Shown here piece by piece: positions 17,309-46,030 of a stretch of 64,000 bases of DNA. The first letter of the stretch is position 1; every line of letters starts with the position of its first letter. The stretch lies in the IMG/VR virus record IMGVR_UViG_3300032087_006189. One strand, 5' to 3'. This stretch comes from a virus. Both the position numbers and the translations under genes were made by a program. The notes beneath the pieces are model-generated. The model saw nothing but the letters and a program-made list of their open reading frames with translations, did no database searches and was not told the origin of the DNA.

Positions 17309-17317
17309 GGATTCTCC

Positions 17318-17324
17318 GTCATAA
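17318..17324 (+). promoter_or_regulatory. GTCATAA putative phage promoter element
   Basis: 33 nt before ATG 17358. Confidence 0.55.
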
Positions 17325-17357
17325 GTACTGTGCTCACAAGTATAGCAAGGAGGTACT

Positions 17358-21072: not shown

Positions 21073-21084
21073 TGCTTAGAGTCC

Positions 21085-21633: not shown

Positions 21634-21647
21634 ATCAGAACCTCTTT

Positions 21648-22037: not shown

Positions 22038-22044
22038 AATTTCC

Positions 22045-23541
22045 TCACACAGAATAGGACTTGAGAGACTTGAGGCCGTTGATCACATCCTCAAGTGCGA
22101 ACATCGCCCGGACTGCAGCAGTCTTGGGGATGCTCTGAAGACCGACCTGCGCGGCAAGAACCACACTGGCAAGCTTGGTCGAGGCTTCCTCAAGCTGTGG
22201 AAGGAACTCGATGTAGGTATCGACGTTCTCCGGGTTGAGGAAGTTGAGAGAAAGTACCGCGTCTACGGAAGCGGTGTCCACCAGTGCTGATGCCTTCTTG
22301 TCGAAGGTGATCGCTGAGATCTCCTTCAGGAGATTCACGCGCTGGGGGATTGCTGTATCCAGCATCTCTGCCGCGGCTTCCTTGAGCGAGTCTTCGTAGT
22401 GCTCTTCCCGCGTCGAGAGGGGCTGTAGACCGAACATGCGAATGGGCTGACCAGAAGAAGCAGCCTTTTCGAGCACGGCGGCACTGAGGTTCTGCGGCAT
22501 ACCTGCAGCAGCCAGCCAGAAGACGCCATCCACCCAGTCGTGCTCACCAGAGCCGACCTTCTCAAAGACCGGTCCGCCCAGTCGGCAGCCGCCGTCCCAT
22601 GCGCGAATCTCGACCATGGTGTGATGAGCGTTGGCCTGAGCCGCCTTCATCAGTTCCTGGCCCATCGAGAGCTGGACGGGGTTCTCGAGCGGCATGAACT
22701 TGAAGTCGGGCGGGATTGCGATGTCCGTGGTGGACGACGCAACGGGCTTCATCAGACCGGGTGACGGGATGATTCGCAGATCGTTCCCGTTCATGTCCTG
22801 TGCCGCGAAGTAGCCCTTGCCCTCAACCTCCACCTTCGTGACGATGTTGTAGGGCACAGTACACATGATGGCCTTGCCGTTGGTCTTTACGAAGACCCCA
22901 AGGCCGCGCACTTCCGCCTTGTCCGGGATCGGAAGGTTGTAGTTCACTCCCACCAAGACACCGGTGACCATGGGCTGAACTGCGTAGGCGCTTCCGTTCG
23001 TGAACAGGCTCATTCCCGAAGGACCGCCCTGCACTGGGTCAAACAGTCCAGGGATGACATAGCCAACCAGCTGCTTGCCTGTGGCAGCATTGGTCACCTT
23101 GTACATGCCGAAGCCTTGGGCAGGAGCAGCCTGCTCCGCCATGGGATCGGGCTCAGCCTGCACATTGGTCAGCGTTGCAGCGCCCTGCTGATCTGCTGCC
23201 TGAAGCATCTCAGGGGGAAGAGCCTGCTGCGCCTGCTGGGCACTGACCTGAGTTTCTTGCGGAGCCATTCCCTGCGGAGCAGCGGACACCTTGATGCTGT
23301 AGCCGTAGCCGGATGGACGAACCTGGATGACATCAGTGCCATAGCTAAAAGCTGATGAGGCAATCGAGGCCAGCTTCGATACCGGCTCGATGGGCCGCGA
23401 GGTCAGGCGATGCAGACACTCCATCACGGACGCGTTCTTTTCGATCATGCGGCGGACTGCAGGATCTTCAAACTCATCGTTGAAGCGCTGAAAATCAGAC
23501 TCGTTGATGGTACCGGCGATTGCCGAACAGATGGTGCTCAT
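22045..23541 (-). CDS. Head-region core protein with K-x-A motifs
   Basis: Start MSTICS (ATGA overlap); EKNAS, SKLAS, EKAAS, LKEAA, DKKAS, TKLAS, PKTAA. Confidence 0.65.
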   Translation of the reverse strand: MSTICSAIAGTINESDFQRFNDEFEDPAVRRMIEKNASVMECLHRLTSRPIEPVSKLASIASSAFSYGTDVIQVRPSGYGYSIKVSAAPQGMAPQETQVSAQQAQQALPPEMLQAADQQGAATLTNVQAEPDPMAEQAAPAQGFGMYKVTNAATGKQLVGYVIPGLFDPVQGGPSGMSLFTNGSAYAVQPMVTGVLVGVNYNLPIPDKAEVRGLGVFVKTNGKAIMCTVPYNIVTKVEVEGKGYFAAQDMNGNDLRIIPSPGLMKPVASSTTDIAIPPDFKFMPLENPVQLSMGQELMKAAQANAHHTMVEIRAWDGGCRLGGPVFEKVGSGEHDWVDGVFWLAAAGMPQNLSAAVLEKAASSGQPIRMFGLQPLSTREEHYEDSLKEAAAEMLDTAIPQRVNLLKEISAITFDKKASALVDTASVDAVLSLNFLNPENVDTYIEFLPQLEEASTKLASVVLAAQVGLQSIPKTAAVRAMFALEDVINGLKSLKSYSV

Positions 23542-23786
23542 TTCAGAAATCTCCGGCGAAGTCTCTCGGCTACGGTGGGGGCAGAGGAAGTCTTCATGCG
23601 CCCAGCGGCAACAAAATCGTCGCACACACTGGCGGGCTCTGCCTCAAAAGAAAACTGCTCGCAGTATCCAGATCCATCGTTGGTTGCTCTGAAGTACGAA
23701 CAGACCTCACAGCGGTTATCCCCCGCTGTGGGGCCATAGTTGGGAGCGTCTTCAACTCCCGCTATTTTTGGGAAAAAGTGAAACAT
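23538..23786 (-). CDS. Small 4-Cys protein, HiPIP-like spacing
   Basis: Y..CEVCSYF...GYCEQF......VCDDF, flanked by PKIAG and MKTSS. Confidence 0.55.
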   Translation of the reverse strand: MFHFFPKIAGVEDAPNYGPTAGDNRCEVCSYFRATNDGSGYCEQFSFEAEPASVCDDFVAAGRMKTSSAPTVAERLRRRFLK

Positions 23787-25699
23787 CAGGAAGCCGGGGC
23801 GGTGGGCGGAGCGTCCGCAATGTCACGCCACTTGTCTTCGCGCTTGCGGAACATGTTTTTGAGGCGAGCACCGACTCCTGCCTTTGCCTGGCGAGCCTGC
23901 TCTGCGGCGGCCTCTCGGGCTCCAGCAGCCATGTTGGGAACCGCGTTACGAACCTGCCTCTCTACTCTCTTGTCGATGTCAGAAACATGCTGCCCCATAG
24001 CTTCGTTGATTTTGTCGACCTTCTTGTCCAGTGTCTTATCGACTTCCTTCATAGCTTCTCGCGCGGCATCTCTGGCCTTACGGTCCATGAAGGTTCCGGC
24101 TTCATCAGCGACACGCTTGATTTGCGGTACCGCCAGCTTCTTCACTGCGGCCGTACCGCCAACCCCGAGTCCACCTCCCACTGCGGCGTCAATTGCCGCC
24201 GATCCTGCGTACTCCTTCACGCGCCGCTTGAACTCATTGGAGTCAATCTTCCCGGAACGTCGATCTCGCATGTCTTGGATCATCTGATTCTTGTTTTTCA
24301 GCAGGGATCGAGTTCCCATGGCTCCTGCACCAAGGGTTCCCATTGCGACATACGGGTTCTTGAGTACGGAAGCAGACTTTACTGCCTGCGGATCCTCAAG
24401 GGTTCCTACTCTCGGCATCCCGATCTCGGCTCGCTGCTGCTGACGCTTGGCAAGTCCGCGCTCCTTGAGGCCGATATTTGCGGCGGAAATCGCACCAGAG
24501 GTAATAAGCCCCTGCTTCATTCCCTTTTTTGCCCCAGCTTGTATCGCCTTCAGTCCACCCTTTCGGGCTCCAAAGCCTCCTCGGACGCCAGCTACCGCAA
24601 GTCCTGCACCTACCGGAAGAGCAAGGTTCTTGAGATTTGACTTGAGCCGGCCCCCGAGCCCTTTCTGGGCCTGGTATCGGTCTTCAGTCTCTCGTCCGCG
24701 CAGCTTTGCGATGGTGCGAAGGCGGTCAGGGTCCATGGTGAACGCATCTGCTTGCGCCCCCTTCTCTTGGAAGTAGACACCGGGAAGCCCGGCGGCAGAT
24801 GTAACGCCGCCACCAATCAGCGCTCCCTTCAGTGCCGACTTCTTGGCATCTGATCTGTGCATTTCGGAGGCATCTCGGAGCATTTCCTTTGCGGTATCTC
24901 CCAGCTCCCTTGCGCGGGCAGACAGGTACTGGCGCTGCGTGCCGCTAAATGCCTTACGGGCGCCGGCCTTCGCTGCTGCAGCTTGATCGGCCAGTCGCTT
25001 GAACTTCTTTGAACTGCGGAGAACTCCCTCCGCCTTCATGGCGCGCAGTGCCCCCGGCGCGTACCCAAGGCCGGCACCAAGACCGATTCCCGTACCGATC
25101 ATGTGCGCGACATTTGCACGGCGCTGTGTCGTATCTCTCGCGTTGCTGCCTCTGGGGCGAGGATTGGGAGCAGAGGAAAGCTTGGTGACGCCCATCGACG
25201 AAGTTCCAGCCCCAACAGTCCGGCCGAAGCCCTGACGCTGCTGGTACGGCGGGTACATCTGGTCGATGAGGGACTTCTGGCGGTGCGGCTGGCGTGCTGG
25301 ACCTTCGAAGACTGCGGGATTGAGCAGGGCAGCCTCGACCCTCTCTGAAGTCAGGGGATAGACATTGCCACCCAGCTCGAAGGTATGGAAGGGCTGGAGC
25401 TGTCGATCTGCGATGATCACGGGGATCTTGATCATGTTCTGCGGGTTCTTCGACTCGGTCGCTGCAGCGGGATCGTTCTTCGCCATCAGCAGTGCATGGC
25501 CGAAAGCAAACCCAGCCTCGGGCTCTACCCGCTGCAGGCTCAGATCGACCTCGTACTGACTGAGGAAGGGCAGCTGCTGGTGCAGATTGCTCAGCACATG
25601 CGCGGGCCACTTCGTGTCGTCATCCGGCATCTTGGCAATCGACGCCTGCTTCTCGAAGAAAGCATGCGGATCGACCTCGGGAAGGAAAAGAGGGGTCAT
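23786..25699 (-). CDS. Globular N-domain plus several glycine-zipper modules
   Basis: FFEKQAS, TKLSS, EKGA and VKSAS delimit the modules; GAGG RBS. Confidence 0.7.
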   Translation of the reverse strand: MTPLFLPEVDPHAFFEKQASIAKMPDDDTKWPAHVLSNLHQQLPFLSQYEVDLSLQRVEPEAGFAFGHALLMAKNDPAAATESKNPQNMIKIPVIIADRQLQPFHTFELGGNVYPLTSERVEAALLNPAVFEGPARQPHRQKSLIDQMYPPYQQRQGFGRTVGAGTSSMGVTKLSSAPNPRPRGSNARDTTQRRANVAHMIGTGIGLGAGLGYAPGALRAMKAEGVLRSSKKFKRLADQAAAAKAGARKAFSGTQRQYLSARARELGDTAKEMLRDASEMHRSDAKKSALKGALIGGGVTSAAGLPGVYFQEKGAQADAFTMDPDRLRTIAKLRGRETEDRYQAQKGLGGRLKSNLKNLALPVGAGLAVAGVRGGFGARKGGLKAIQAGAKKGMKQGLITSGAISAANIGLKERGLAKRQQQRAEIGMPRVGTLEDPQAVKSASVLKNPYVAMGTLGAGAMGTRSLLKNKNQMIQDMRDRRSGKIDSNEFKRRVKEYAGSAAIDAAVGGGLGVGGTAAVKKLAVPQIKRVADEAGTFMDRKARDAAREAMKEVDKTLDKKVDKINEAMGQHVSDIDKRVERQVRNAVPNMAAGAREAAAEQARQAKAGVGARLKNMFRKREDKWRDIADAPPTAPAS

Positions 25700-25714
25700 G
25701 GTGTCCTCGAGGAT

Positions 25715-26791
25715 TCAGTCAGTCTCAAGAGTACTTGAGAGAAGCGGTGCCCGGTCAGAGAGTGACGCTACAATATCACTTAGCAGCAAATCTGTCTGTG
25801 TTGTCGGATAGCCCAGTGTATTCAGGGCGGTCTTAATCTCAGTCAGAGATGCGCTGAGTTTTGTGAGAAAAGTCGTCCCCTGTACTACGGGCTCGGTAGT
25901 GCCAGTATCAAGAGTCTTTGCGACTCGAATCTTCTCATTGGTCTCGATAAGCGTGGCGCCGTTTCTCGCGACCCCGAGATTTAGGGCAGTCGGCTCTCCG
26001 AAGTAGAGGGTTTCTTGGCTCTTGACCTGGAAGGAGACAACCCTCTTTGCGGGATCTGGCGCAGACGGCTGAAGTGTGGTGACCGTCTCCACGGTGCCGT
26101 CTGACAAGATCAAGGGCTTCGTAACGGGGAGGAGCGGAGGCTCAGGAATCGGGGCATCGAGCTCGATTCTCGCACCCTCGGTGTTGCCCATTTGAGTGCG
26201 GACAGTCCAGGACTTTGCCGTAGCGAACTCCTTGACCTCCTCCGTTTTTCTCGTGGTCAGATCTCCGAAGTTGTCCTCTTCCCTTGTCAGGGTCTTCCAC
26301 TCGGTCGATCCCCCAAGAGTCTCGACCTTCCAGTTCTCAGCAATGCAGAGCAGCTGGTTCTTGAATGGATTGGTGATGATACGCGAAAGAGCAGTTCCTC
26401 GAAGCTCGGTCACTCCTCCTCTGCGCACAATCAGACCATTCCCATCTCGAGTCAGGACAGTCATGTCCCCCGGGTTCAGGAACGGGCGGTTGGAATGATA
26501 GGAGCCAGGCTGCCCATCTTCTGTGCTCGCAGAAGCAAACGGCGCAGAGAGAAGCAGGAACGACTCGCTGCCGTCGGACGGGACGCAGACAAATACCTGC
26601 GCCCCGATTTCTGGCATGTAGTGAACTCCCTCTCCGAACGGAGTCGAGTACAGAGAGGGAATCGTGACGTTCTGAAAGCTTCTTTTTGCAGCGAGGCAAT
26701 CGACCACACAGACCCATCGGGATGGATCAACGGAAGTAATCCTTCCCTGATAGATACGGGCATCTACAGGCTGTAGGCCGGAAGAGGGCAT
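25715..26791 (-). CDS. Baseplate spike/hub (gpV/gp5 OB-fold) protein
   Basis: GRITSVDP...YMPEIGAQVFV N-terminal OB-fold signature, then beta repeats. Confidence 0.6.
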   Translation of the reverse strand: MPSSGLQPVDARIYQGRITSVDPSRWVCVVDCLAAKRSFQNVTIPSLYSTPFGEGVHYMPEIGAQVFVCVPSDGSESFLLLSAPFASASTEDGQPGSYHSNRPFLNPGDMTVLTRDGNGLIVRRGGVTELRGTALSRIITNPFKNQLLCIAENWKVETLGGSTEWKTLTREEDNFGDLTTRKTEEVKEFATAKSWTVRTQMGNTEGARIELDAPIPEPPLLPVTKPLILSDGTVETVTTLQPSAPDPAKRVVSFQVKSQETLYFGEPTALNLGVARNGATLIETNEKIRVAKTLDTGTTEPVVQGTTFLTKLSASLTEIKTALNTLGYPTTQTDLLLSDIVASLSDRAPLLSSTLETD

Positions 26792-26798
26792 TCTGTTC

Positions 26799-29700
26799 CT
26801 ACAAGAAAGAGAAGAATCTAGTCTTTTTGGGTTGGGCAGTCTGCGACTTGTCGGCGGGCTTTGGAGTCGCCGTCGATAGACTTACTGGCGTCACAGGCTT
26901 TGGTAGTCCTGGGGTCTTTACTGTCTGCGAGGGCTCGAGGCCAAACTCGGCTCCGTGCGCGATGCCAGAAATCGGGTGACCGTGGATGTCGGACTTCCAG
27001 TTCTGCGCTGCACCTTCGATGTATGTTTCCTTGAGGCGCTGGAAGTTCAGTCGTGCCATCCAGTCTTCCTGCCCTGCAAGAGGCATCTGGTTCATAGCCT
27101 TCAGCTTTGGCTTGTGCTTGATGGGACGCTTGCCCATTGCCTTCAGGTCGCGGTTCTTTGCCTCGACCTCTGACATCGGTACAAGCTGTCCGCGCAGGTA
27201 TGAAGAGTCATCTCCTGGATCGTCGATGCGGGTCAAGTCGGTCATCGCACGAATCACCGTCTCAATGTTTCTGCGCCTCTCGTGCCCGGTAGTCGGCACA
27301 TACAGCGCACTGAGGGAATCGGTAATGTGGTTTCGAACCGCCCCCATGCTCTTCGTAATCCGAAGAATGTCATGGGGATTTTTTCTACCCGTAGAAAGCG
27401 CCTCGGCCTTCTTGACCTCGTATCCTACGCGAATCTGAGGAAGGAGCTGGTTCGTATGCGGAACGACATGCTTCTTCCCATCGATCGTTACAGTCTTTCC
27501 GCCCAGTGCGTCTGTCTCAATCTTTTGGATCTTCCCAGAAATCTCGGCAAGAGTCGCCGATCCCTTCAGAGTTGAAGGAACCTTGAACAGGTCCTCTGCT
27601 GCGGTGAAGTAGTCGCCGACATCGCTCTCTCCACCCACACCGCCAGTGTGGAAGGTCTTCATCTGCATCTGCGTGATCGGCTCACCAAGAGCGTGGCCGG
27701 CGATAACCCCGACATTGGTGCCGACCGTGTAGAGCGTTCCCCGCTCGTTGAGGCCGTAGCAGGTGGAGCAGATGCCCTTCACTTCTTTGCAATTCAGGGG
27801 AGAGCGGACCAAGACCTTTGCGGGTCCAGACTTCTTGATTTGCTGTCGAACCTGAGATGTAACCAGCGACCCCCTTTTCAGGGTCTGCCCGTCCTTGAGG
27901 GGGACATCTCCAGCAAGGAAGCGCCCCTCGACATCTGCATCCATAGAAGGCAGCAAAGTACCCTTTGTGGTGCCGCAGTCTTTGGACCGAATCTTGTTGT
28001 CGATGACCGTGTTGATCAGCTCCTTTGTCAGAGCTCCGGGCTTCGCAGTGGAAGATGCCCGGTCGATTGTTCCCTTACGCGCACCGTGAAGTGACGCATA
28101 ATACTGGGAGATCGGAAGTCCTTCTCCGAAGGACTTTGTGATCGGGAATGCAACTGGCTTGTTCATGGGATCCTGAACAATCATGGGGCCCATGACCATC
28201 TGGCTAAACTGGCCCCAGTTTCCGCGTGCCCCAGACTGCGCCCATTCCCACATTCGGTTGTCTTGGCGGCGGTTGTAGCGATCCTCGCCGACAGACTTCA
28301 GCTCCTTTTGGGCCTTCAGGTACAGCTTGACGATCTTGTCGTCCTTGCTTTGCTGGCTGCCGCCGCTCTTTCTGATCTTTGCTTCCTCTGCCTTGTACTT
28401 CTTTAGAACCTGGTCCCGGATCTCCTTGCCGTCGTGGAAGTCATTCAGACTGAAGCTTGACCCGTTCTTATAGGACAGGTTGAAGCCCAGATTCTTCCAC
28501 TGATCGATCATTTTGGAGAACTCTTCTGGATTGGCTCTCGCAATCTCGGTGGCAAAACCCTTCATGCCGCCCTTGGCCATACGAAAATCCTTGTCGTACA
28601 GCAGGTCGTCTCGGTTTTTGAACTCCTTAGGGAGAGTGCTGTTGATCAACAATCGGCCCGGTGTCGTTGGACGCTTGTAGCCCATCACTGTGATCACATC
28701 ATAGGACTTCAGCTTCCCGGCCTTGAGGGCCTTGATTGCTTGCACATCCGTGTATGTGCCGGACTTCTTCTTGCCCCATTTGGTCGCCTGATAAATACCG
28801 AGAACGGCGTCCATACTCGGAGCAACCATCAGCTTATTGCTGGTAGGAGAAAACAGATTCTTGGAAGGCATCATGGCCTTTGCCTCGTCCACCGCCTTTT
28901 CGGTGATCGGGACATACATGGCCATCGTGTCGCCATCGAAGTCAGCGTTGAAACCGCCTGTGACGAGGGGATGAATTTTGATGGACTTCCCTTCTACAAG
29001 TTTCGGGCGGAACGCCATGATTGAAAACATGTGGAGAGCGGGGTCGCGCTTCATCATTGCTGGGCGGTCTTTGATGACTCTTTCAAGGGCCTCATAGACT
29101 GCTGGGTGCTTCTTCTTGACCATGATCCGCGCTTGCATCGGAGATGATGCGCGGCCCATGTCCTTGACCAGAGCCTTGATGACGAACGGCTTGTACATCT
29201 CGAGCGCCATCTCTCGGGGCATGCCGACTTCATCCAGTGGCATCTCAGGGTCTGGAGTAATGACAGAGCGACCAGAGAGGTCCTGTCGTTTACCCAGAAC
29301 TCCAGATTGGAAGAATGACTGCTTCGGCTGGTTCAACCCAGACAGCTTGTCCATCAAGCTGGGAGCATGCCTTCCCTCAATCTGCATCCCTGTCAGCCGC
29401 AGAGACTTGACCAGCTTGTACACCTCGGCCTGGTTCTTTTGGATTTCCTGAACCGGGAGGCGCTCCTTCTCAGACTGCTTGAGCTGGCGAACCATCGCCC
29501 CGGTCTGTGCGTACATCACATTGACGGGATCGATAATCTGTGTCCCATCGAAGCCGATGCTCACCCTTCGCAGTGTCGGTGGAAGGATCGGCAATACAGA
29601 GTTCATGTAGGCGTCGACCGGCTTTACTCCCAGATCTTTGAGAGCGCGAAGATAGCGAACTCGCTTGTATCGGACATTCAGCTCCGCTTCTTTTGCGGTC

Positions 29701-32700
29701 TTGAGCTCGGCCTCTGCCTTCTTCAGCTCAGCATCGACATTCATCTTTGAGAGCTTCTCTTCAATGACCTTGAACCCAGACTTGCTGCCCACGGCCCCTT
29801 CAGCAGTCAGCAGCTTTTGGAACTCAGGCTTCTTCATCCCAAGAAGAGATCGAATTGGTTCCTCAAAAAGAGGATTTGGAACTTTCATCCCGAGGTCCAT
29901 GTGGGACCACTTCTCTCCTTGGAGGCCTCCGGTCTTGCCGCGGTCGAAGAGACCGCCTCTCTCTTCTTTGGTCAAAGACCCTTTCGCAGACAGAGTCTTT
30001 TCTGGGAATGCCAGCGCACCAGAGCTCTGTGCCTTTGTCTGGGCATCCGTCATCGGCATGAGGGAGTACTCTCTGCCGCTGCGCTCGGAAGACACCCCCA
30101 TCGCCTTCATGTACTTCTGGAACTGAAGCATGGAGCGCGGCACCTTTGGAGTAGGTGGGCGCTGCCCAAGAAGAATCCGCTTCCAGGTGTCCTCTGCCTG
30201 TTCCTTGTCAGACTTGTAGGTCTGCATCTCGCGGAGGTTGAACTTCGCGCCATGCGCGAGCAGCGTGTAGGTATCGAGGCCACCAATTCTCTGGCCGCCC
30301 TTTCCGATACCTGAACCCTGCGCTGCCTCACCGGTAGTCTTGTATCCGTAGCCAGCTCCACCAGAGCGAGCAGAGATCTTCTTCTCAGCCTGGTGGTCGA
30401 GCTTCAGCAGATACTGCGGCCCAGTGAATACTGGTCCAAGACTTTCTCCAGTCTCGGGGTCGAACAGCTCTTCGGTATCTGAGATCTTGTGCTTCTTCAG
30501 CTCGGACTTCACGAGTGCCGAGTAGTCGACATCCGGATTGAAGTTGTCCACCACGAAGGGCTTGCCAGTCTTGAGCGCGATCTTGCCTGCCGCAGTCTCG
30601 AGAATCTGCCCGGGGTTCATACGGGACGGAACACCGGCAGGAGACATCAGAACCTGGACTGCGTTGCCCTTCTTGTCCTTGGGCATCTGATCATCAGGAA
30701 GGATTCTAGTGACGATGCCCTTGTTACCATGGCGACCAGAGAGCTTGTCTCCGACTTCCATGGTCTGCTCGGTACGGATGAAGACCGCGATCTTCTTTCC
30801 AGTGCTTACGACACGGACGACCTTTCCTCCGTACTCGTGCTTCCAGCGTTCTTCGGACGGGTTGAAGTCTCGGATTGCGCCCTTGAGCTGCTTCTTGATG
30901 TTTGCGGTCTCTCGGCTGTTGTCTTGCTTTACCAGCTTTGCGATCAGAACATCATCGGGCTCTACAACAGTGCCGACCTTTACGATTCCGCGGTCATCCA
31001 GTTTACGGAGAATGTCCGGGGTTGCCTTTTCAGGACCTGCATACCGACGCCACAAAGCCTTATCGACCACCACATTCGAATACATCTCCGTCTCAACAGA
31101 GTGAAGGTGGTTTGACACGAGCTTCTTCGCTGCAGACTCTGAGATGACGATTCCGTCCTCAAAGTTGTAGCCCTTGTACGGGATGTAAGCGACGCGCAGA
31201 TTTGTTCCCAGAGCGAGCTTTCCGCCCTTCGTGAAGTTGGAATCTGCGAGAAGCTGCCCCTTCCTGACTTTGTCCCCGACCTTTACGGCTGGAGTGGAAT
31301 CCAGCATGTGCTTTGCGCCGTTCAGCGGGTAGTTGTCGTACAGGGCGTGGACATACCTCTTCCCGTCGGCACCCTTCACTACGATCTGCTTCTTGTTGAC
31401 GCTGATGACTTGGCCAGTTGCACTGCTCGTGACCGAGGCGGTCGATCCTACTAGGTCTTCGTATGCTGCACCCTTTGCTGCGGCCGTCTGAACAAGTGGA
31501 GCTTCGCGCTCTTTGAGGCCGACCGCTTGCTCCTGGTGCTTGGCAGCCATCATCGAACGGTTGCCGTTGTCGTTCTGGATGAACGGAATCAGGTTTGCAC
31601 TGACCGCAAACAGCAACTTTGCTGACGGCAGGACATAGTCCACCTCTTTCCACTGGCGCTTTGAGGTGTTGCGATCCTTGTCGTAAACAACCACATCAGG
31701 CGTCTTTGGCTTTACAGAAACAGTGCCGTCAGACTTCTTCGTAATCTTGACCTGATCGGGGAACGCAACAACTGCCCGTTCCAGATCTGCCGCTGACTTT
31801 CGCTCTACCTTACCAGTACGTACATTCACAACCTGCGCCATCAGATCGTGCCCGACCTTCTGGGCTCCCATCGGCACATGCAGGTGGATACCAGTCTGCT
31901 GGCTCTCTGGGGTCTGCAGAGGATCGAGCACACCCAGATGACTGGGGTTGATCATCTTGTCCTGCATCAGGTTGACATTGTCGCCCTTGATCCCACCAAA
32001 TGCTGCGCCAAGAATCGTCGTCTTCGTGTGATTGGAAACGAACTGCAGGGGATTGGTCTGGGTGGGAAGCTGTGCCGCCTTGAACGGCTTGAGAATCGCA
32101 GCGCCGTACCCAGATGCCGACGCAGGGATGATCTCTTGGATTGAGTTCTTGCGGTCAACATTGTTTCGGATCTTGCGAGTCAGGGAATATGCCGTCTTCC
32201 CCTTTGTCAGCTCTTCTGCGACAAAGTCTTCGACCCCGTAAAGGCGCTTGTTCGCGATTGACTGTCGGTCGTCTTCCTTCGCGCGCCCCTTACTGATGTC
32301 CACCAGCTTCTTCGCAGAGAGAAGGAGTGCCTCTCCAGTGATGCTGGAAAACTCCTTTCCGAGCGCAGACTTCATGGTCTGCTTGCTGACTTCCGCACCC
32401 TCAAAAGTAGCGCGGGTAAATTCTCGCGCAACGGCAAGGCTGGGCTGCTTGTACTTCGTCTTGTCCCTACGACCTTCAATGGCTTCGTGAAATTTGACGA
32501 TGTCAGCTGGCTTGCTGTACCGCTTGTTGACCTCGTAGACCCCATCTCCGAGCGCAGCTCGAATCTTGGCGTCGTCGATTCCCATCGCGTTGAGAATGGG
32601 GATTACTGGAATCTTACGAGTAGAAGATCCTCCGCTTTTGATCTGAAGGTAGATGAAGCCAACCTTCTTGGGGTCTCTTCTTTCGATGAAGATGTCGAAC

Positions 32701-33152
32701 GAGCCCACCTTGCTACCTGCTGCCACATTCCACTTGGCAACCAAGTCCCCGTTCTGGGCCTCTGCGTGGTACGCGCCGGGGTTTAGGCGGAACACACTAT
32801 CGAACTGCTTCTCATTTCCATCAACAATGAAGCTGTAGCGCGTGGTGATCTTGGGCAGCTTCCCCAAGGTTCTCTTTCGCTGATCAATGACCTTGCCGGT
32901 TTCTTTTTCAATCAGCCGAAAATGTCCGACAATGTCAGGTCCCCAAGTGTTGCCATTGAGTCGTGCATCCAGCTGGCTGTCATAGTTCGCGGGATTGAAC
33001 TTGGCAGATCCTGTCGCAGAGTCGTCTTCGATCTCGAGCTTTGTCAGCTCAAGCCGGTGAACGTTTCCCTCGATCGGAAACTGCGAAGAAATGGCTTCTT
33101 TGGTCTTCTGGACCAGAAGCCTGTAGGACTCGAGGGGGTTCAGATTCGGCAT
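26799..33152 (-). CDS. rpoBC: DNA-directed RNA polymerase, fused beta and beta' subunits
   Basis: Beta motifs QTPE..GI, GYNFEDG, GDKLSGRHGNKG, PSRMNPGQ, GGQRIG; beta' motifs LGKRQDLSGRSVI, RDPALH, NADFDGD, SGARG, GEPITQ and DCGT..RSPLNC..CSTCYG. Confidence 0.95.
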   Translation of the reverse strand: MPNLNPLESYRLLVQKTKEAISSQFPIEGNVHRLELTKLEIEDDSATGSAKFNPANYDSQLDARLNGNTWGPDIVGHFRLIEKETGKVIDQRKRTLGKLPKITTRYSFIVDGNEKQFDSVFRLNPGAYHAEAQNGDLVAKWNVAAGSKVGSFDIFIERRDPKKVGFIYLQIKSGGSSTRKIPVIPILNAMGIDDAKIRAALGDGVYEVNKRYSKPADIVKFHEAIEGRRDKTKYKQPSLAVAREFTRATFEGAEVSKQTMKSALGKEFSSITGEALLLSAKKLVDISKGRAKEDDRQSIANKRLYGVEDFVAEELTKGKTAYSLTRKIRNNVDRKNSIQEIIPASASGYGAAILKPFKAAQLPTQTNPLQFVSNHTKTTILGAAFGGIKGDNVNLMQDKMINPSHLGVLDPLQTPESQQTGIHLHVPMGAQKVGHDLMAQVVNVRTGKVERKSAADLERAVVAFPDQVKITKKSDGTVSVKPKTPDVVVYDKDRNTSKRQWKEVDYVLPSAKLLFAVSANLIPFIQNDNGNRSMMAAKHQEQAVGLKEREAPLVQTAAAKGAAYEDLVGSTASVTSSATGQVISVNKKQIVVKGADGKRYVHALYDNYPLNGAKHMLDSTPAVKVGDKVRKGQLLADSNFTKGGKLALGTNLRVAYIPYKGYNFEDGIVISESAAKKLVSNHLHSVETEMYSNVVVDKALWRRYAGPEKATPDILRKLDDRGIVKVGTVVEPDDVLIAKLVKQDNSRETANIKKQLKGAIRDFNPSEERWKHEYGGKVVRVVSTGKKIAVFIRTEQTMEVGDKLSGRHGNKGIVTRILPDDQMPKDKKGNAVQVLMSPAGVPSRMNPGQILETAAGKIALKTGKPFVVDNFNPDVDYSALVKSELKKHKISDTEELFDPETGESLGPVFTGPQYLLKLDHQAEKKISARSGGAGYGYKTTGEAAQGSGIGKGGQRIGGLDTYTLLAHGAKFNLREMQTYKSDKEQAEDTWKRILLGQRPPTPKVPRSMLQFQKYMKAMGVSSERSGREYSLMPMTDAQTKAQSSGALAFPEKTLSAKGSLTKEERGGLFDRGKTGGLQGEKWSHMDLGMKVPNPLFEEPIRSLLGMKKPEFQKLLTAEGAVGSKSGFKVIEEKLSKMNVDAELKKAEAELKTAKEAELNVRYKRVRYLRALKDLGVKPVDAYMNSVLPILPPTLRRVSIGFDGTQIIDPVNVMYAQTGAMVRQLKQSEKERLPVQEIQKNQAEVYKLVKSLRLTGMQIEGRHAPSLMDKLSGLNQPKQSFFQSGVLGKRQDLSGRSVITPDPEMPLDEVGMPREMALEMYKPFVIKALVKDMGRASSPMQARIMVKKKHPAVYEALERVIKDRPAMMKRDPALHMFSIMAFRPKLVEGKSIKIHPLVTGGFNADFDGDTMAMYVPITEKAVDEAKAMMPSKNLFSPTSNKLMVAPSMDAVLGIYQATKWGKKKSGTYTDVQAIKALKAGKLKSYDVITVMGYKRPTTPGRLLINSTLPKEFKNRDDLLYDKDFRMAKGGMKGFATEIARANPEEFSKMIDQWKNLGFNLSYKNGSSFSLNDFHDGKEIRDQVLKKYKAEEAKIRKSGGSQQSKDDKIVKLYLKAQKELKSVGEDRYNRRQDNRMWEWAQSGARGNWGQFSQMVMGPMIVQDPMNKPVAFPITKSFGEGLPISQYYASLHGARKGTIDRASSTAKPGALTKELINTVIDNKIRSKDCGTTKGTLLPSMDADVEGRFLAGDVPLKDGQTLKRGSLVTSQVRQQIKKSGPAKVLVRSPLNCKEVKGICSTCYGLNERGTLYTVGTNVGVIAGHALGEPITQMQMKTFHTGGVGGESDVGDYFTAAEDLFKVPSTLKGSATLAEISGKIQKIETDALGGKTVTIDGKKHVVPHTNQLLPQIRVGYEVKKAEALSTGRKNPHDILRITKSMGAVRNHITDSLSALYVPTTGHERRRNIETVIRAMTDLTRIDDPGDDSSYLRGQLVPMSEVEAKNRDLKAMGKRPIKHKPKLKAMNQMPLAGQEDWMARLNFQRLKETYIEGAAQNWKSDIHGHPISGIAHGAEFGLEPSQTVKTPGLPKPVTPVSLSTATPKPADKSQTAQPKKTRFFSFL

Positions 33153-33172
33153 GAAACTTCTCTCCGGAAACC

Positions 33173-33179
33173 GTCATAA
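33173..33179 (+). promoter_or_regulatory. GTCATAA putative phage promoter element
   Basis: GTCATAACTATAA, 40 nt before ATG 33220 (GGAG RBS; 33-aa ORF). Confidence 0.55.
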
Positions 33180-33399
33180 CTATAACAGCCGGAACATAGC
33201 CACCGGCATTGGAGTACACATGACCACGATGTTCATTCATTTGTCGTTCTGCAGCACCGATCCCGCCGATGAAGGGGGCAACGACCCCTTCGGCGGCACT
33301 GACCGCTTCGGAGAGTGGTAGTGATTTCGACGATCTTCTGGATGGCTGCCATTGTAGCAGCCATCCAGAGTTCTTCGGACATCATCGACGATGAGATCA

Positions 33400-33735
33400 A
33401 TGCCGAAGAGTAAGAAAAGCAGCCTCCGGGCTCGGCTTCGTGCCGAGCTCGGGGCGCTGCCCGATCGACCACACGCTACTGTTTTACTCCCTAAAACTCA
33501 AGAGGAGGACACGCTACAGCACTACTGTCCGCTGATTGAGGAGAAGTGCGGACTGATGGAGTGCCGGGGGTGTGAGGCCATTCACAGCGCAATCTCCTAC
33601 GACGAAACCTGGGTCTGCTCAGAGTGCGTGGGAGAGGGCCTCAAGCCACATCCGTACTGGACTGCTGGAGATTGCGACAGCTGCGGGGACTACAGTAGCT
33701 TTCTGATCTTGGTGACAGATGCCGATACCGTATGA
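33400..33735 (+). CDS. Small Cys-rich (Zn-binding) protein
   Basis: Several CxxC motifs; probable start MPKSKK. Confidence 0.55.
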   Translation: MPKSKKSSLRARLRAELGALPDRPHATVLLPKTQEEDTLQHYCPLIEEKCGLMECRGCEAIHSAISYDETWVCSECVGEGLKPHPYWTAGDCDSCGDYSSFLILVTDADTV

Positions 33736-33970
33736 GTGTGAATGGTGCGGAGCAGCGGCAGCAAGGAATGAGAAGATGGTGTGCCTCTCTCGGCACACCG
33801 TTCTTCGTGGCCCTCGCCACTACCGCCTCAAAGAAGCAGAATTCTCAGACCAGGGACCTGAGATCATGCTGCACGAAGCCTGCCTCATCCAGAACTCAAA
33901 GGAGATTCTGGAGAGGCTGTACGAGGGAGTTCAGGTCGATCCTCCGAAGAAATGGAAGATCTCGGCTTAG
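33719..33970 (+). CDS. Small Zn-finger protein
   Basis: YECEWCG...HEAC. Confidence 0.5.
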   Translation: MPIPYECEWCGAAAARNEKMVCLSRHTVLRGPRHYRLKEAEFSDQGPEIMLHEACLIQNSKEILERLYEGVQVDPPKKWKISA

Positions 33971-36021
33971 CCGACCTGTCTTCCGGGATCGGCCTGCGGA
34001 TTTCCGGCCGGCGCGGGGTTCTTCATCGCGTCGGCCGGGTTTGTCTGGGAGCCCCGGTCATTCATTAGCTGTACTACCAGCTTGTAGAGCGGCGGGTTTT
34101 CCATCTGCATCTGCTGGAGGGCCTGGTACATGGCGTCCTCACCCTGCTCTCTTTTTAGCGTGCGGAAATACGACGCCGCTCTTTGCGCGATGTACCGAAG
34201 GTCTACGCCGCCAGAACCAGGCTGAACTTGCGACTGCATCCCTGCCATTGCGGCTGGCATGCCTGCCTGGTTCGGGCCTTGCGCGTTTTCTTCGTACGCT
34301 GTGGCCCCTTCCGGAAGTCCTGGCGTCTGCTGGGCAGCATCTCCGCCCTGCTGCTGCTGCTGCTGCGGCTGTTGGGCCTGCGCAGCTTGCTGTTGCTGCA
34401 TCTGCTGAGCCTGGGCCTGCTGCTGCGCCTGCATCTGCTGCTGCTGCATTTCCATCTGGGCTTGCCCCTGCGCCTTGAGCGTGAGGGCTTGAGCTTTTGC
34501 CTGATACCGAGAAGTACGGAGCTGGGCCTCGCCCTGAATATCGGCAGCAGCGACCTGCATTCTGCGGTTGGACTGGAGCTGCTTCTTGATCTCCTCGCCC
34601 ATGCGCTCGGATTCCAGATCGAAGTTCTCTCCGATCTCCTCCATGAGGCGGCGATCCGAAATCTTCTGTGCCTGGTTGAGCTGCAGATAGAACATCGACC
34701 GCTGAAGGTCGTCTGCCATGCGGAACTTGTCGAACCGAGTGGGCACCTTCGGCCACTGCATGAACGATGCGATTTTGCCCATGATGAAGCGGTTCACGAG
34801 CTCATGGCGCTGCTTGTTGTACCCGAGGAACATGTTCTCGAGTGCGCGCAGCGAGGTGCTCGATCCACTCCACTGCAGGCCGCCGAAGATGAACTCGACC
34901 GGGATACCCGCACCCGCAAGCATCTGCTCTGCCAAAAGCCGCATCTCTTGGTACATCAGCAGGGCTCGACCCTGTCCGCCGATCTGCTGAAACCCAATGT
35001 TCACGGGCAAGACCGGGATGTAGTTGTGATCGCGCTTCCACATGTTGATCTCTTCATCAACGCGGCGCTTCCAGTTGGTCAGGTTGTACGACCCATACGG
35101 CCCTTCATTACCTCCCGTGTTCTGTCCCGGGAAGATCATCCGCATCGGGACGATGTTCTCCATCAAGACAGCCTCGTTCGCCTTCTTCATCACCTGCAAG
35201 TAGAACGCATCCTTGAGCAGGGGGAAGATCAGGGGAGTGCCCCAGCCCTGATCCTTCTGCGCGATGGTCGGGCGCTTGAGGTGGTAGAGGTTGTCCTCTG
35301 AGAACAGGAGCGACTTTCGCTTGCGCGCAGCTTCAAGAAACTCGATGGGCAGAGACTCGACCGTGTCCTTGTCCCCCATCTTGATGTCGTTGACGACACT
35401 ACGAGGGAGCCGGAAGTAGTACTTCGTGTGGCCGGTGATCTCGTTGTGCTTGATATCGATGTTCTCGGGGTTCCAGCGCACGAGACGGATCTTGCGGAAG
35501 CTCCGCATGTAGACATCGTGCTGCTTGGCGTAGCCCTGGTGTCCGCAGTCACACTTGTGGATGTAGAACTGTGAGTTGCGCCACTTGTAGCGGAAGCGGT
35601 TGGTCTTTGCGCGGTACCGGGTCTTGCAAGAGGAGCAGATCAGGTACTTCTCAAACGGCAGGAAGACCGAAACAAACGCGTTGCCGTAGACGAAGTAGTC
35701 GAGACCGACCTCGACTTGGAACGACCGCAGCTTTAGGTGGTCCTCTACCCCCTTGTAAAGCTTCTGCAGCTCCGGATCTTCGGTCTCGAATACCAGCGGA
35801 GTAACTGGATACTCTGCCATCTTCGAACATGCGGCGTTGATGACCGGATTCGTCAGGTAGTAGTACCGACACCACTTATGCAGCTCATGCTGGTTCGCTG
35901 GAAGAAACTGCTGAGAAACATCGAAGAAGGGGGACGGGTAGCGAATCCCGAAGCCGCGACCACCCTCGGCCGTGACTGGGCGCGGATTGAACCGGTTTAC
36001 TTCGCTTGTGATCACATTCAT
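33967..36021 (-). CDS. Portal protein
   Basis: YYLTNPVINAACSKMAEYP, YFVYGNAF, YHLKRP...GWGTPLI and AGIPVEFIFG portal-like pattern; Q-rich C-terminal tail. Confidence 0.75.
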   Translation of the reverse strand: MNVITSEVNRFNPRPVTAEGGRGFGIRYPSPFFDVSQQFLPANQHELHKWCRYYYLTNPVINAACSKMAEYPVTPLVFETEDPELQKLYKGVEDHLKLRSFQVEVGLDYFVYGNAFVSVFLPFEKYLICSSCKTRYRAKTNRFRYKWRNSQFYIHKCDCGHQGYAKQHDVYMRSFRKIRLVRWNPENIDIKHNEITGHTKYYFRLPRSVVNDIKMGDKDTVESLPIEFLEAARKRKSLLFSEDNLYHLKRPTIAQKDQGWGTPLIFPLLKDAFYLQVMKKANEAVLMENIVPMRMIFPGQNTGGNEGPYGSYNLTNWKRRVDEEINMWKRDHNYIPVLPVNIGFQQIGGQGRALLMYQEMRLLAEQMLAGAGIPVEFIFGGLQWSGSSTSLRALENMFLGYNKQRHELVNRFIMGKIASFMQWPKVPTRFDKFRMADDLQRSMFYLQLNQAQKISDRRLMEEIGENFDLESERMGEEIKKQLQSNRRMQVAAADIQGEAQLRTSRYQAKAQALTLKAQGQAQMEMQQQQMQAQQQAQAQQMQQQQAAQAQQPQQQQQQGGDAAQQTPGLPEGATAYEENAQGPNQAGMPAAMAGMQSQVQPGSGGVDLRYIAQRAASYFRTLKREQGEDAMYQALQQMQMENPPLYKLVVQLMNDRGSQTNPADAMKNPAPAGNPQADPGRQVG
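34345..34450 (-). repeat. CAG-rich low-complexity tract (poly-Gln) in the portal C-terminus
   Basis: CTG runs on the + strand; QQQQMQAQQQAQAQQMQQQQ. Confidence 0.8.
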
Positions 36022-37076
36022 GACTGCTCACCACTCTGCCCGAATGCCCGGTCTACCAAAGATCCTGCGCCTCCGGCAATGTCTCCTGCCGCTCCCTCAA
36101 GAGGGGCCATAGCCAAGCCCGCAGCCGCGGGAACGAGCATCTTCTGACTGAAGAGTGACCTCTGGCTTGCCAGGGAGGGATCGATCTTCTTGAGGAGGGG
36201 ATTGAAGACATTGGACTTTGAGAGTCCCATGTTTCTTCCAGCCAGAAGATGCGCAGTCCCTGCCGTAAGGCCGGCACCGACTGCTCCTCTGGCCAGCCTC
36301 TCTGTGACGCCCCGCTTGTTACCGTACTCGTCAGTACTTGGGGCTGCCCCACCGAGACCCCCGATAGCTGCGCCGCCAACTTCCATAGCGCGCTCTCCCG
36401 GAATGTACGTCCCGATACCTCCGCGAAGGTTGACGCCCTGATCGGCCGCTTCTTGCCCGATCCTTCGGTATACGGACTCAATGTCTTTGTAGTCTACTCT
36501 GCCTGCCTTCTGGGCTTCTTGAATAGCCTTGATGTCTCTCTGAAGCCCTGCGCTGGCCTCAAATCCCTTCTCACCTTTAAGCCAGCTGCGCAGACCTCCC
36601 GATGAACGCTCGCCGACAGACATCCAGCCGCCACGTCTGGCCGCTCCCGCCCCTTCTCTTAGAGCATCATGCTGTGTGGCAGTTCCCCTAAGCGCGTCTT
36701 CGAAGGCCTCGTTCATGATCTCTACACGCTTTGACTGAGCGGCTCTCCGAGAAAACTTGTCGGCGCCTTCTCCAACGAAGCTCGCTCCGGTGTTCATCCC
36801 TCGGCGCATAGCCTGAACTGGGTTTTTGGCCGCGGCCGATACGTTGCCCAAAAACTTCTTGGCAGCTTTCGGGTTTGTAGCCAGCGCGCCAGCTGCGACA
36901 AGGCCTCCAGCAGCGCCCAGGGCGCCCATGGTTCCGCCAAAGTTTCTTTTGAAAAACCCAGGCTTCTTCTGTTGCTGTTGCGGCTGTGGCTGAGCAGCAG
37001 TCACGGGCTTGGCAGGCTGAAGCGCAGACAGCTTGGTCATCTCTTCAGAAAACGCCCGAAACACCAAAGTGTTCAT
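36018..37076 (-). CDS. Glycine-zipper protein with N-terminal F..EEM.KLS leader
   Basis: MNTLVFRAFSEEMTKLSA; four Gly/Ala hydrophobic segments. Confidence 0.7.
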   Translation of the reverse strand: MNTLVFRAFSEEMTKLSALQPAKPVTAAQPQPQQQQKKPGFFKRNFGGTMGALGAAGGLVAAGALATNPKAAKKFLGNVSAAAKNPVQAMRRGMNTGASFVGEGADKFSRRAAQSKRVEIMNEAFEDALRGTATQHDALREGAGAARRGGWMSVGERSSGGLRSWLKGEKGFEASAGLQRDIKAIQEAQKAGRVDYKDIESVYRRIGQEAADQGVNLRGGIGTYIPGERAMEVGGAAIGGLGGAAPSTDEYGNKRGVTERLARGAVGAGLTAGTAHLLAGRNMGLSKSNVFNPLLKKIDPSLASQRSLFSQKMLVPAAAGLAMAPLEGAAGDIAGGAGSLVDRAFGQSGEQS

Positions 37077-38948: not shown

Positions 38949-38989
38949 TTTTTTGCTCCTAAAGAGGGATGCAAGATTTCGAATACGCT

Positions 38990-38996
38990 GTCATAA
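38990..38996 (+). promoter_or_regulatory. GTCATAA putative promoter of the replication operon
   Basis: 33 nt before ATG 39030. Confidence 0.55.
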
Positions 38997-39029
38997 GCGT
39001 AATAGCACACCAAACGGAGGTTAGTGCAA

Positions 39030-40840: not shown

Positions 40841-40849
40841 GAGGTTCGA

Positions 40850-46022: not shown

Positions 46023-46030
46023 ATGAACTG

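What the first reader, a model, noticed from the sequence alone, without database searches (positions are those of the whole stretch)
26799..33152. Compact single-chain beta-beta' RNA polymerase lacking the beta' N-terminal zinc finger, encoded among virion genes
Seen: all beta motifs then all beta' motifs in one 2117-aa ORF, with the junction near YMKAMGV (~30100). The beta' start reads GGLFDRGKTGGLQGEKWSHMDL, so the Cys4 zinc-binding domain between GLF and GHIEL of bacterial RpoC is missing while the second Zn site remains. No alpha, omega or sigma gene is in the window. Established: bacterial beta plus beta' total roughly 2500-2800 aa, phiKZ-type enzymes are split into several subunits, and crAss-type single-chain enzymes are far more divergent. 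Inference: a bacterial-like, minimised, possibly alpha/sigma-independent enzyme; its position between portal and spike suggests it is virion-packaged.
Basis: partly seen in the sequence, partly recalled or inferred. Interest (0 to 1): 0.78.

Follow-up and report, generated by a model that had tools for sequence, protein, structure and literature searches.

The report
Single-chain phage RNA polymerase, zinc finger lost
An uncultured marine tailed phage encodes both large subunits of a bacterial-type RNA polymerase as one 2117-residue protein without the usual N-terminal zinc finger. It belongs to a large, barely described phage family that also carries its own sigma factor and probably ships the enzyme inside the virus particle.

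Summary
Window 26799-33152 (-) is one intact 2117-aa ORF with beta domains followed by beta' domains and a seamless junction at about residues 1014-1035. The protein has only four cysteines, which align with the second zinc site of E. coli beta'. The four cysteines of the N-terminal zinc-binding domain fall in a 32-residue deletion.

This is not a one-off. More than 120 fused homologues of about 2030-2120 aa and 389 IMG/VR loci share the architecture. All 80 loci examined lack the zinc finger. Salmonella phage Arash and Vibrio phage D69 carry a split version, also without the finger.

The clade separates from 23 bacterial enzymes on a long branch, so it is not a recent host capture.

The "sigma-independent" reading is not supported. 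The same genome encodes a 276-aa sigma-70-family protein about 19 kb beyond the window, and its orthologue co-occurs in 19 of 22 large related contigs. No alpha or omega gene was found in five related genomes. Virion packaging is plausible from Arash proteomics and the conserved portal-RNAP-spike order, but it is untested for this phage.

This scan had already found the same enzyme family on other DNA, and earlier follow-ups reached the same reading.

The parts
26799..33152 (-). Single ORF of 2117 aa (P0001): fused beta-beta' RNA polymerase
30081..33152 (-). Beta module, residues 1 to about 1024 (Rpb2_2, Rpb2_6, Rpb2_7). Includes the GRHGNKGI motif and a rifampicin-pocket region that differs from E. 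coli.
30048..30113 (-). Seamless beta/beta' junction, residues 1014-1035. It is conserved in the homologues and modelled as a beta hairpin (model residues 121-134).
26799..30080 (-). Beta' module, residues about 1025-2117 (Rpb1_2 to Rpb1_5). No Rpb1_1 hit.
29892..29957 (-). Site of the lost zinc-binding domain: GGLF...WSHMDL, residues 1066-1087. It is 32 aa shorter than E. coli and has no cysteine.
29391..29528 (-). Beta' clamp helices (coiled coil), residues about 1209-1254. This is the expected docking site for sigma region 2.
   Evidence: helices 310-330 and 335-355 of the model, high pLDDT; the role is inferred from bacterial enzymes
28929..28949 (-). Catalytic NADFDGD motif, residues 1402-1408; six of its seven positions are invariant in 27 homologues and F1405 is nearly invariant
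27759..27977 (-). Second zinc site: C1726, C1788, C1795 and C1798, the only cysteines in the protein
33967..36021 (-). Portal protein gene upstream of the RNAP. The adjacency is conserved out to Arash and D69.
25715..26791 (-). 358-aa gene 8 nt downstream of the RNAP stop codon; baseplate-spike-like (a lead only). Conserved downstream of the RNAP in the metagenomic relatives examined; no match in the Arash or D69 loci.
33152..33179 (+). Sigma-28-like promoter candidate (TGAAA-N16-GTCATAA). It points away from the RNAP gene towards small plus-strand genes and overlaps the RNAP start codon.
38970..38996 (+). Second promoter candidate (TGCAA-N15-GTCATAA), ahead of the plus-strand replication operon

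Best explanation
The ORF encodes the catalytic core of a phage-specific, bacterial-type RNA polymerase, with beta and beta' joined head to tail in one chain. I think it works as a two-protein holoenzyme with the phage's own sigma-70-family factor (P0131, encoded about 50 kb away in the same structural gene block), without phage-encoded alpha or omega. Both genes sit in late structural operons. The most likely cycle is that core and sigma are made late, packaged into the head, ejected with the DNA, and then transcribe the plus-strand early and replication genes from sigma-28-like promoters (xAAA-N15/16-GTCATAA).

Shown: the fused architecture, intact catalytic motifs, loss of the zinc finger, retention of the second zinc site, family-wide conservation, the presence and co-occurrence of the sigma gene, and the absence of alpha and omega genes in relatives.

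Inferred: that sigma binds this core, that the enzyme is packaged, that it acts early, and that it resists rifampicin. In my alignment E. coli D516, H526 and S531 correspond to T, N and T.

Loss of the zinc finger probably removes a contact used by host termination and antitermination control near the RNA exit channel. This too is inference.
For: Architecture and motifs.

Structure: the AlphaFold model of residues 900-1500 has mean pLDDT 86.8, with an ordered junction and clamp helices. Foldseek matches it to bacterial beta' N-terminal halves at E about 1e-30.

Family: more than 120 fused homologues at 39-75% identity and 389 IMG/VR loci. There is one RNAP copy per genome in 5 of 5 relatives.

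Sigma:
- P0131 lies on contigs that carry this genome's proteins and is listed with Pfam Sigma70_r3.
- A 72%-identical orthologue hits Sigma70_r3 above the Pfam cut-off, and matches FliA/WhiG and RpoD C-terminal models over about residues 95-272.
- The P0131 model matches solved sigma factors with probability 1.0 over about 250-290 alignment columns.
- The orthologue is present in 19 of 22 large related contigs and in 7 of 8 that are at least 90% complete.

Arash: gp10 is the sigma orthologue (31% identity, E 6e-24) and lies among structural genes. Arash virion mass spectrometry gave gp206 the highest spectral count (3516). It also found gp216 (1210) and gp10 (467) (PMC10585845).

Context: the portal-RNAP order is conserved across the family, and the spike-like gene follows the RNAP in the metagenomic relatives.

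Alpha and omega: Pfam models find nothing in five related genomes, while the same searches hit all 14 control genomes.

Promoters: all six GTCATAA sites are on the plus strand. Four of them lie 25-65 nt upstream of a candidate plus-strand start codon, mostly with a ribosome-binding site.
Against: - There is no proteomic, transcriptomic or biochemical data for this phage. Packaging rests on a relative whose RNAP is about 30% identical.
- The Arash virion preparation also contained ribonucleotide reductases, ligases, a primase and helicases. Its authors themselves raise carry-over of abundant proteins as an explanation.
- Binding between sigma and the core could not be tested.
- The phage sigma could instead redirect the host polymerase, as the sigma-like factors of T4 and SPO1 do.
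- GTCATAA alone is only weakly enriched: 6 sites against 2.85 expected, and 7 of 100 shuffles reach 6.
- The beta flap-tip region, which docks sigma region 4, is poorly conserved in the family.
- Three of 22 related contigs show no sigma orthologue, one of them 91% complete.
Confidence: 0.55

Rival explanations
1. One reading: an autonomous single-chain enzyme that recognises promoters itself and needs neither sigma nor alpha, like the crAss-type or N4 virion polymerases.
For: The window has no alpha, omega or sigma gene. Five relatives have no alpha or omega gene. The zinc finger is lost and the flap tip varies across the family.
Against: A sigma-70-family gene is present in the same genome and in 19 of 22 related contigs. 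The clamp helices are retained. The candidate promoters resemble sigma-28 promoters in their two-part form. The Arash sigma orthologue is found in virions together with the RNAP.
Confidence: 0.12
2. A non-packaged intracellular polymerase. The enzyme is made during infection for middle or late transcription, and its position among virion genes has no functional meaning.
For: The Arash virion preparation also held many clearly non-structural enzymes, so abundant proteins may simply carry over. Each genome has only one RNAP copy, so the same enzyme would also have to serve late in infection. There is no virion data for this phage.
Against: Arash gp206 has the highest spectral count in the preparation, 2.6 times that of the major capsid protein. 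The gene sits directly after the portal gene in relatives whose RNAP is as little as about 30% identical. The sigma gene also lies in structural operons, here and in Arash.
Confidence: 0.25
3. The phage sigma redirects the host polymerase, while the single-chain enzyme works with a different, unidentified phage factor or with none.
For: Phage sigma-like factors that retarget the host core are well known (T4 gp55, SPO1 gp28; my own knowledge). Binding of the sigma to this core was not tested here. The flap tip is variable.
Against: RNAP and sigma co-occur tightly across a deep family, and both are detected in Arash virions. A phage with its own core has little need to retarget the host core, which is an inference.
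Confidence: 0.15
4. A recently captured host rpoB-rpoC operon, or an assembly artefact that joins two genes.
For: The overall similarity is to bacterial beta and beta'.
Against: Identity to every sampled bacterial enzyme is only about 28-34%. All phage sequences sit on one side of a long branch with 100% SH-aLRT support, opposite 23 bacteria from about 10 phyla. The fusion is seen in hundreds of independent contigs and in a contig from an independent study.
Confidence: 0.01

Closest known systems
RNA polymerase of Salmonella phage Arash (gp206 + gp216, with sigma gp10) and of Vibrio phages D69, D181 and D148
   Same: Same clade in the tree. Beta is fused to the N-terminal half of beta'. The same GGLFD...WSH segment lacks the zinc finger, and the second zinc site is kept. 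The gene follows the portal gene. There is an orthologous sigma factor. Both Arash pieces and the sigma were detected in virions.
   Different: Identity is only about 29-30%. In those phages the chain is broken after about residue 1500 into a piece of about 1525 aa and one of about 606 aa. In Arash 4.7 kb of other genes separate them, and D181 and D148 have a homing endonuclease gene there. Here the chain is continuous. The published Arash paper annotates the genes but, in the passages I read, does not discuss the fusion or the missing zinc finger.
Natural rpoB-rpoC fusions of Helicobacter and Wolbachia (from my own knowledge, not tested here)
   Same: Beta and beta' are joined in the same order in one polypeptide. 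This shows that the C-terminus of beta and the N-terminus of beta' can be linked without loss of function.
   Different: Those are cellular enzymes of about 2900 aa that, as far as I know, keep the zinc finger and work with alpha, omega and host sigma factors. The phage enzyme is about 800 aa shorter and lies outside all sampled bacteria in the tree.
mReC, the multisubunit-RNAP-encoding Caudovirales (Weinheimer and Aylward 2020, PMC7481178)
   Same: Uncultured tailed phages with beta and beta' that are recognisably bacterial-like and branch apart from cellular enzymes.
   Different: In their tables mReC beta (about 1000 aa) and beta' (about 890 aa) are separate genes. The paper does not mention a fused form in mReC. 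Their capsid and terminase families differ from the terminase hit here. I did not test whether the two groups are sister clades.
Virion and non-virion RNAPs of phiKZ- and AR9-type jumbo phages
   Same: Phage-encoded two-barrel polymerases without alpha or omega. One set is packaged in the virion for early transcription (PMC7598289 and PMC7824862).
   Different: Those enzymes are split into four or five polypeptides and are far more divergent. They come in two sets per genome, and no sigma factor is found in those phages. Here there is one chain, one copy and a sigma gene.
crAss-like phage gp66 and the N4 virion RNAP
   Same: Very large single-chain polymerases carried in the virion and injected to start infection. 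This is a functional analogy.
   Different: crAss gp66 is so divergent that beta and beta' profiles do not detect it. The N4 enzyme belongs to the unrelated T7-like fold. The protein here aligns with bacterial beta' at E about 1e-125 to 1e-195.
Beta' subunit of Rhizobium phages such as RHph_Y65 (Kleczkowskaviridae)
   Same: A phage-encoded, bacterial-like beta', 28% identical over residues 1081-1854.
   Different: It is a separate 1127-aa gene and keeps the N-terminal four-cysteine zinc finger (C53, C55, C68, C71).

Membership tests
Bacterial-type multisubunit RNA polymerase large subunits (beta / beta') | Beta domains Rpb2_6 and Rpb2_7 with the GRHGNKG motif | tested here: met
   PF00562 at E 4.5e-64. 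PF04560 hit at 26.3 bits, below its 32.1-bit cut-off. Aligns with E. coli RpoB 32-1338.
Bacterial-type multisubunit RNA polymerase large subunits (beta / beta') | Beta' catalytic NADFDGD loop with the Rpb1_2 to Rpb1_5 domains | tested here: met
   NADFDGD at residues 1402-1408; six of seven positions invariant in 27 homologues and F1405 nearly invariant. PF00623 at E 3.7e-32 and PF04998 at E 2.5e-23. PDB profile matches at E 1.8e-195.
Bacterial-type multisubunit RNA polymerase large subunits (beta / beta') | Beta' N-terminal four-cysteine zinc-binding domain (E. coli C70, C72, C85, C88) | tested here: not met
   There is no cysteine before residue 1726. The four E. coli cysteines fall in gaps. 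The domain is absent from all 80 IMG/VR homologues and from Arash and D69.
Bacterial-type multisubunit RNA polymerase large subunits (beta / beta') | Second beta' zinc site (E. coli C814, C888, C895, C898) | tested here: met
   C1726, C1788, C1795 and C1798 align one to one with the E. coli residues and are invariant.
Bacterial-type multisubunit RNA polymerase large subunits (beta / beta') | Assembly with an alpha dimer and omega | not testable with these tools
   No phage alpha or omega gene in the window or in five related genomes. Use of host alpha cannot be assessed.
Arash/D69-type phage RNAP family (beta fused to beta', no zinc finger) | One clade with Arash and D69, apart from bacteria | tested here: met
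   Tree of 53 rows and 825 columns. The branch separating phages from bacteria has 100% SH-aLRT support. This was a quick LG+G4 search and the tree is unrooted.
Arash/D69-type phage RNAP family (beta fused to beta', no zinc finger) | Gene placed directly after the portal gene, and an orthologous sigma factor in the genome | tested here: met
   Portal homology at E 5e-87, with conserved adjacency. Sigma P0131 is an orthologue of Arash gp10.
Virion-packaged phage RNA polymerases | The protein is physically present in purified virions | not testable with these tools
   Only indirect evidence: Arash virion mass spectrometry and the gene's position in the structural operon.
mReC (PMC7481178) | Separate compact beta and beta' genes that form the published mReC clade | tested here: not met
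   The listed mReC entries have separate genes of about 1000 and 890 aa, whereas here there is one ORF. Clade membership was not tested, because no mReC sequence was to hand.
Sigma-70 family (for the partner protein P0131) | Regions 2, 3 and 4 in sigma-70 order | tested here: met
   The 72%-identical orthologue scores 40.3 bits on Sigma70_r3 (cut-off 25.3) and hits Sigma70_r4 weakly. It gives partial matches to FliA/WhiG and RpoD C-terminal models, all below their curated full-length cut-offs. The P0131 model matches solved sigma factors with probability 1.0.

The most novel reading that the evidence does not exclude
A widespread clade of marine and other environmental phages carries in its virions a minimal two-polypeptide version of the bacterial transcription machine. 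It would consist of one beta-beta' chain with no alpha, no omega and no zinc finger, plus a small phage sigma factor, and it would start infection from sigma-28-like promoters independently of the host polymerase. That would make it the simplest known sigma-dependent multisubunit-type RNA polymerase.
Probability: 0.4. Interest if true: 0.75.

Novelty: new variant of a known kind. Interest (0 to 1): 0.6.

Why it matters
Known phage polymerases of the cellular type are of two kinds. Some are broken into many pieces and work without sigma (phiKZ, AR9). Others are single chains too divergent to compare with cellular enzymes (crAss, YonO).

This family is different. It is alignable with bacterial beta and beta' at about 30% identity, fused, stripped of the zinc finger and of alpha and omega genes, and paired with a recognisable sigma factor.

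If the two-protein holoenzyme is real, it would be:
- a natural experiment on what alpha, omega and the zinc finger are needed for;
- a tractable target for structure work;
- a compact orthogonal transcription system;
- a possible explanation of how many abundant marine phages escape dependence on, or inhibition of, the host polymerase.

The family is common, with hundreds of loci in IMG/VR, yet I found only one paper that touches it, and that one only at the level of annotation.

Tried and rejected
- Complex prediction (sigma P0131 with the beta' clamp region) was closed and the job was not sent, so binding between sigma and core remains untested.
- Megablast of window 20000-40000 against GenBank phages found no match.
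- The search for related loci with the single protein found nothing in IMG/VR. The alignment-based search succeeded.
- No whole genome is held for this window. I reached the sigma gene by walking along contigs that carry identical proteins.
- Pfam Sigma70_r2 did not detect the sigma in three close relatives. The TIGR02937, TIGR02479 and Sigma70_r3 models did.
- PHROGs and Pfam gave nothing for most neighbouring genes.
- I could not map IMG/VR contig names onto the mReC supplement, because the naming schemes differ.
- The scan of 185,579 species genomes returned only ordinary bacterial rpoBC operons among the best 80 loci, with no fused phage-like copy, so it gave no host clue.
- No RNA holder is listed among the sequencing runs.
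- One low-depth contig shows a 1-nt insertion at 30156 (depth 3.7, run X5). I treat this as a probable error or a relative, not as evidence against the frame.
- Literature searches for a described fused phage beta-beta' enzyme found none beyond the Arash paper. The library is incomplete, so this is not proof of absence.
- MAFFT on 81 full-length sequences timed out, so I used a sub-region instead.

Full report
**The observation**

Window 26799-33152 on the minus strand is one uninterrupted ORF of 2117 aa. Pfam finds the beta domains Rpb2_2, Rpb2_6 and Rpb2_7 at residues 176-1019, followed by the beta' domains Rpb1_2, Rpb1_3, Rpb1_4 and Rpb1_5 at 1287-1845. Rpb1_1, which holds the zinc finger, is not detected. 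BLASTP against E. coli K-12 aligns residues 7-1023 with RpoB 32-1338 and residues 1105-2058 with RpoC 150-1346.

A global alignment places GGLF (1066-1069) on E. coli G55-F57 and WSHMDL (1082-1087) on MGHIEL 102-107. Twelve residues lie between F1069 and W1082, where E. coli has 44 between F57 and M102. E. coli C70, C72, C85 and C88 all fall in gaps.

The whole protein contains just four cysteines: C1726, C1788, C1795 and C1798. They align one to one with the second zinc site of E. coli beta' (C814, C888, C895, C898) and are invariant in 27 homologues. The catalytic NADFDGD motif is at 1402-1408.

**Is the fusion real?**

- The identical protein occurs on five contigs of up to 155 kb.
- Homologues at 39-75% identity are nearly all 2030-2120 aa. 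The longer ones carry intein or LAGLIDADG domains.
- A profile search of IMG/VR found 389 loci. In the best 80 the frame is open for at least 1800 aa, mostly 2060-2190 aa.
- A 322-nt contig from a different seawater study spans the junction without an indel. The differences listed across it are almost all spaced in multiples of three, as expected for a coding region under selection.
- In an alignment of 81 sequences the junction is continuous and conserved, and no sequence has a cysteine between GGLFD and WSH.
- An AlphaFold model of residues 900-1500 (73-row alignment, mean pLDDT 86.8) shows the junction as an ordered hairpin and a confident short linker where the finger would be. Foldseek matches the model to the N-terminal halves of bacterial beta' at E about 1e-30.

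**What the window is**

It is part of a tailed phage genome. It holds a large terminase (15581-17386, phrog_675, E 9e-58) and a plus-strand replication block with a helicase, DnaB, a family A DNA polymerase and a RecA/UvsX-like protein.

The 684-aa gene upstream of the RNAP is homologous to the Arash portal gp204 (32% identity, E 5e-87). The gene 8 nt downstream of the RNAP resembles baseplate spike proteins in the ESM Atlas, which is only a lead.

The order portal, RNAP, 358-aa, 637-aa and 526-aa genes recurs in relatives whose RNAP is only 38-47% identical. The portal-RNAP adjacency reaches Arash and D69. Sequencing runs that hold the DNA are seawater metagenomes.

**Relatives and phylogeny**

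The only isolates with a clear relative are Vibrio phages D69, D181 and D148 and Salmonella phage Arash, at about 29-30% identity.

In these phages the chain is split after about residue 1500 into a beta plus beta'-N piece of about 1525 aa and a beta'-C piece of about 606 aa. They too lack the finger and keep the second zinc site. By contrast, the separate beta' of Rhizobium phage RHph_Y65 keeps the four-cysteine finger. The loss of the finger is therefore a trait of this clade, not of phage polymerases in general.

A scan of one genome per bacterial species gave only ordinary rpoBC operons at 28-34% identity among the best 80 loci, from many phyla. A maximum-likelihood tree used conserved beta and beta' segments (53 rows, 825 columns, LG+G4, quick search). 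It puts all 30 phage sequences on one side of a long branch with 100% SH-aLRT support and 23 bacteria from about ten phyla on the other. Arash and D69 are sister to the fused forms, with 90% support.

The tree is unrooted and the branches are long. It rules out a recent capture from a sampled phylum but says nothing firm about how old the clade is.

The published mReC phages have separate beta (about 1000 aa) and beta' (about 890 aa) genes. The mReC paper mentions fusion only for crAss phages.

**How compact is it?**

Compared with E. coli, the missing 630 aa are mostly lineage-specific inserts, plus the finger and the chain ends. Compared with small Firmicute enzymes, whose stop-to-stop frames add up to about 2300-2400 aa, the losses are smaller. 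They are parts of the beta lobe around residues 200-235, the beta C-terminal tail, the 32-aa finger and about 25-30 aa before the clamp helices.

**Sigma, alpha and omega**

The window has no such gene at Pfam sensitivity. First-stage notes on the same genome pointed to a sigma gene beyond the window. I checked this by walking along contigs that carry identical proteins.

- A 276-aa protein (P0131) listed with Pfam Sigma70_r3 lies about 19 kb past the window's end. It sits in the same minus-strand structural block.
- Its 72%-identical orthologue scores above the cut-off on Sigma70_r3. It also matches FliA/WhiG and RpoD C-terminal models over about residues 95-272.
- The AlphaFold model of P0131 (pLDDT 81.7) matches solved sigma factors (sigma A, S, B and WhiG) with probability 1.0 over about 250-290 alignment columns.
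- A profile of 26 homologues finds the orthologue in 19 of 22 large related contigs, and in 7 of 8 that are at least 90% complete, at E of 1e-53 or better.
- The Arash orthologue is gp10, which lies among structural genes.
- Alpha (PF01000, PF01193) and omega (PF01192) models find nothing in five related genomes, while hitting all 14 control genomes.
- Each of five relatives has a single RNAP copy.

**Promoters**

GTCATAA occurs six times, always on the plus strand. Four sites (14990, 17318, 33173, 38990) lie 25-65 nt upstream of a candidate plus-strand start codon, mostly with a ribosome-binding site. Each has an xAAA-like element 15-16 nt upstream. This resembles the sigma-28 promoter form.

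The count alone is weak: 6 sites against 2.85 expected. The position of the sites relative to genes is the stronger argument.

**Packaging**

In the Arash paper, gp206 had the highest spectral count of all proteins in purified virions (3516, against 1333 for the major capsid protein). gp216 (1210) and sigma gp10 (467) were also found. So were several clearly non-structural enzymes, and the authors themselves mention possible carry-over (PMC10585845). I rate packaging in this phage as likely, about 0.65, but not shown.

**Mechanism I commit to**

I favour a single-chain core plus the phage sigma. Both would be made late, packaged, and injected to transcribe the early plus-strand genes without alpha or omega. 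My estimates are about 0.95 for a functional fused catalytic core and about 0.65 each for sigma partnership and packaging. That gives about 0.5-0.55 for the whole model.

Rifampicin resistance is an inference from my alignment, in which E. coli D516, H526 and S531 correspond to T, N and T.

**Novelty**

The genes are in public databases with automatic names, and Arash is published. However, I found no paper that describes the fused bacterial-type chain, the loss of the finger or the pairing with sigma.

This scan had already met the same family on two other phage genomes, and those follow-ups reached the same reading. Those notes agree with my conclusions. All but the 22-contig sigma co-occurrence count were reached before I read them, but they are not independent evidence.

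Noticed in passing
window 53659-60378 (-): A 2239-aa ORF with no Pfam or PHROGs match. In the same operon beyond the window it is followed by genes of 1619, 760 and 2332 aa, also without matches. These are probably giant tail or baseplate proteins, or ejected proteins.
   Followed up: no
L001/L002 (Vibrio phage D69, Salmonella phage Arash) and records H2/H3 (D181, D148): In the isolates the RNAP chain is broken near residue 1500. D181 and D148 carry a homing endonuclease gene within the matched stretch, and Arash has 4.7 kb of other genes there. Several metagenomic homologues carry inteins or LAGLIDADG domains inside the ORF. The gene seems to be a frequent target of mobile elements, which may have caused the split.
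   Followed up: partly
window 33152-33179 (+), and sites at 14990, 17318 and 38990: A two-part motif (xAAA-N15/16-GTCATAA) precedes plus-strand genes at strand switches. The copy at 33152 overlaps the RNAP start codon on the other strand.
   Followed up: partly
P0001 as a whole: The 2117-aa protein contains only four cysteines, all at the retained zinc site. Arash gp206 has one cysteine and gp216 has four. This is a marked avoidance of cysteine for so large a protein.
   Followed up: partly
Arash record about 120974-121165 and D69 record about 133652-133825: The isolates have a second sigma-like gene with a canonical Sigma70_r2 match. It lies within about 10 kb of the RNAP gene and is distinct from the gp10-type sigma. 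One complete relative (G005) has two further FliA/WhiG-model matches about 39 kb from its gp10-type sigma, possibly one extra sigma gene. These may be stage-specific sigma factors.
   Followed up: no
window 39024-53491 (+): Pfam hits among the ORFs of the window that had not been scanned before (most of them in this block) include uracil-DNA glycosylase, a DnaJ domain, DnaG-type primase domains, RusA, and an HTH_17/MerR-like small regulator. I did not resolve which ORF carries which domain.
   Followed up: no
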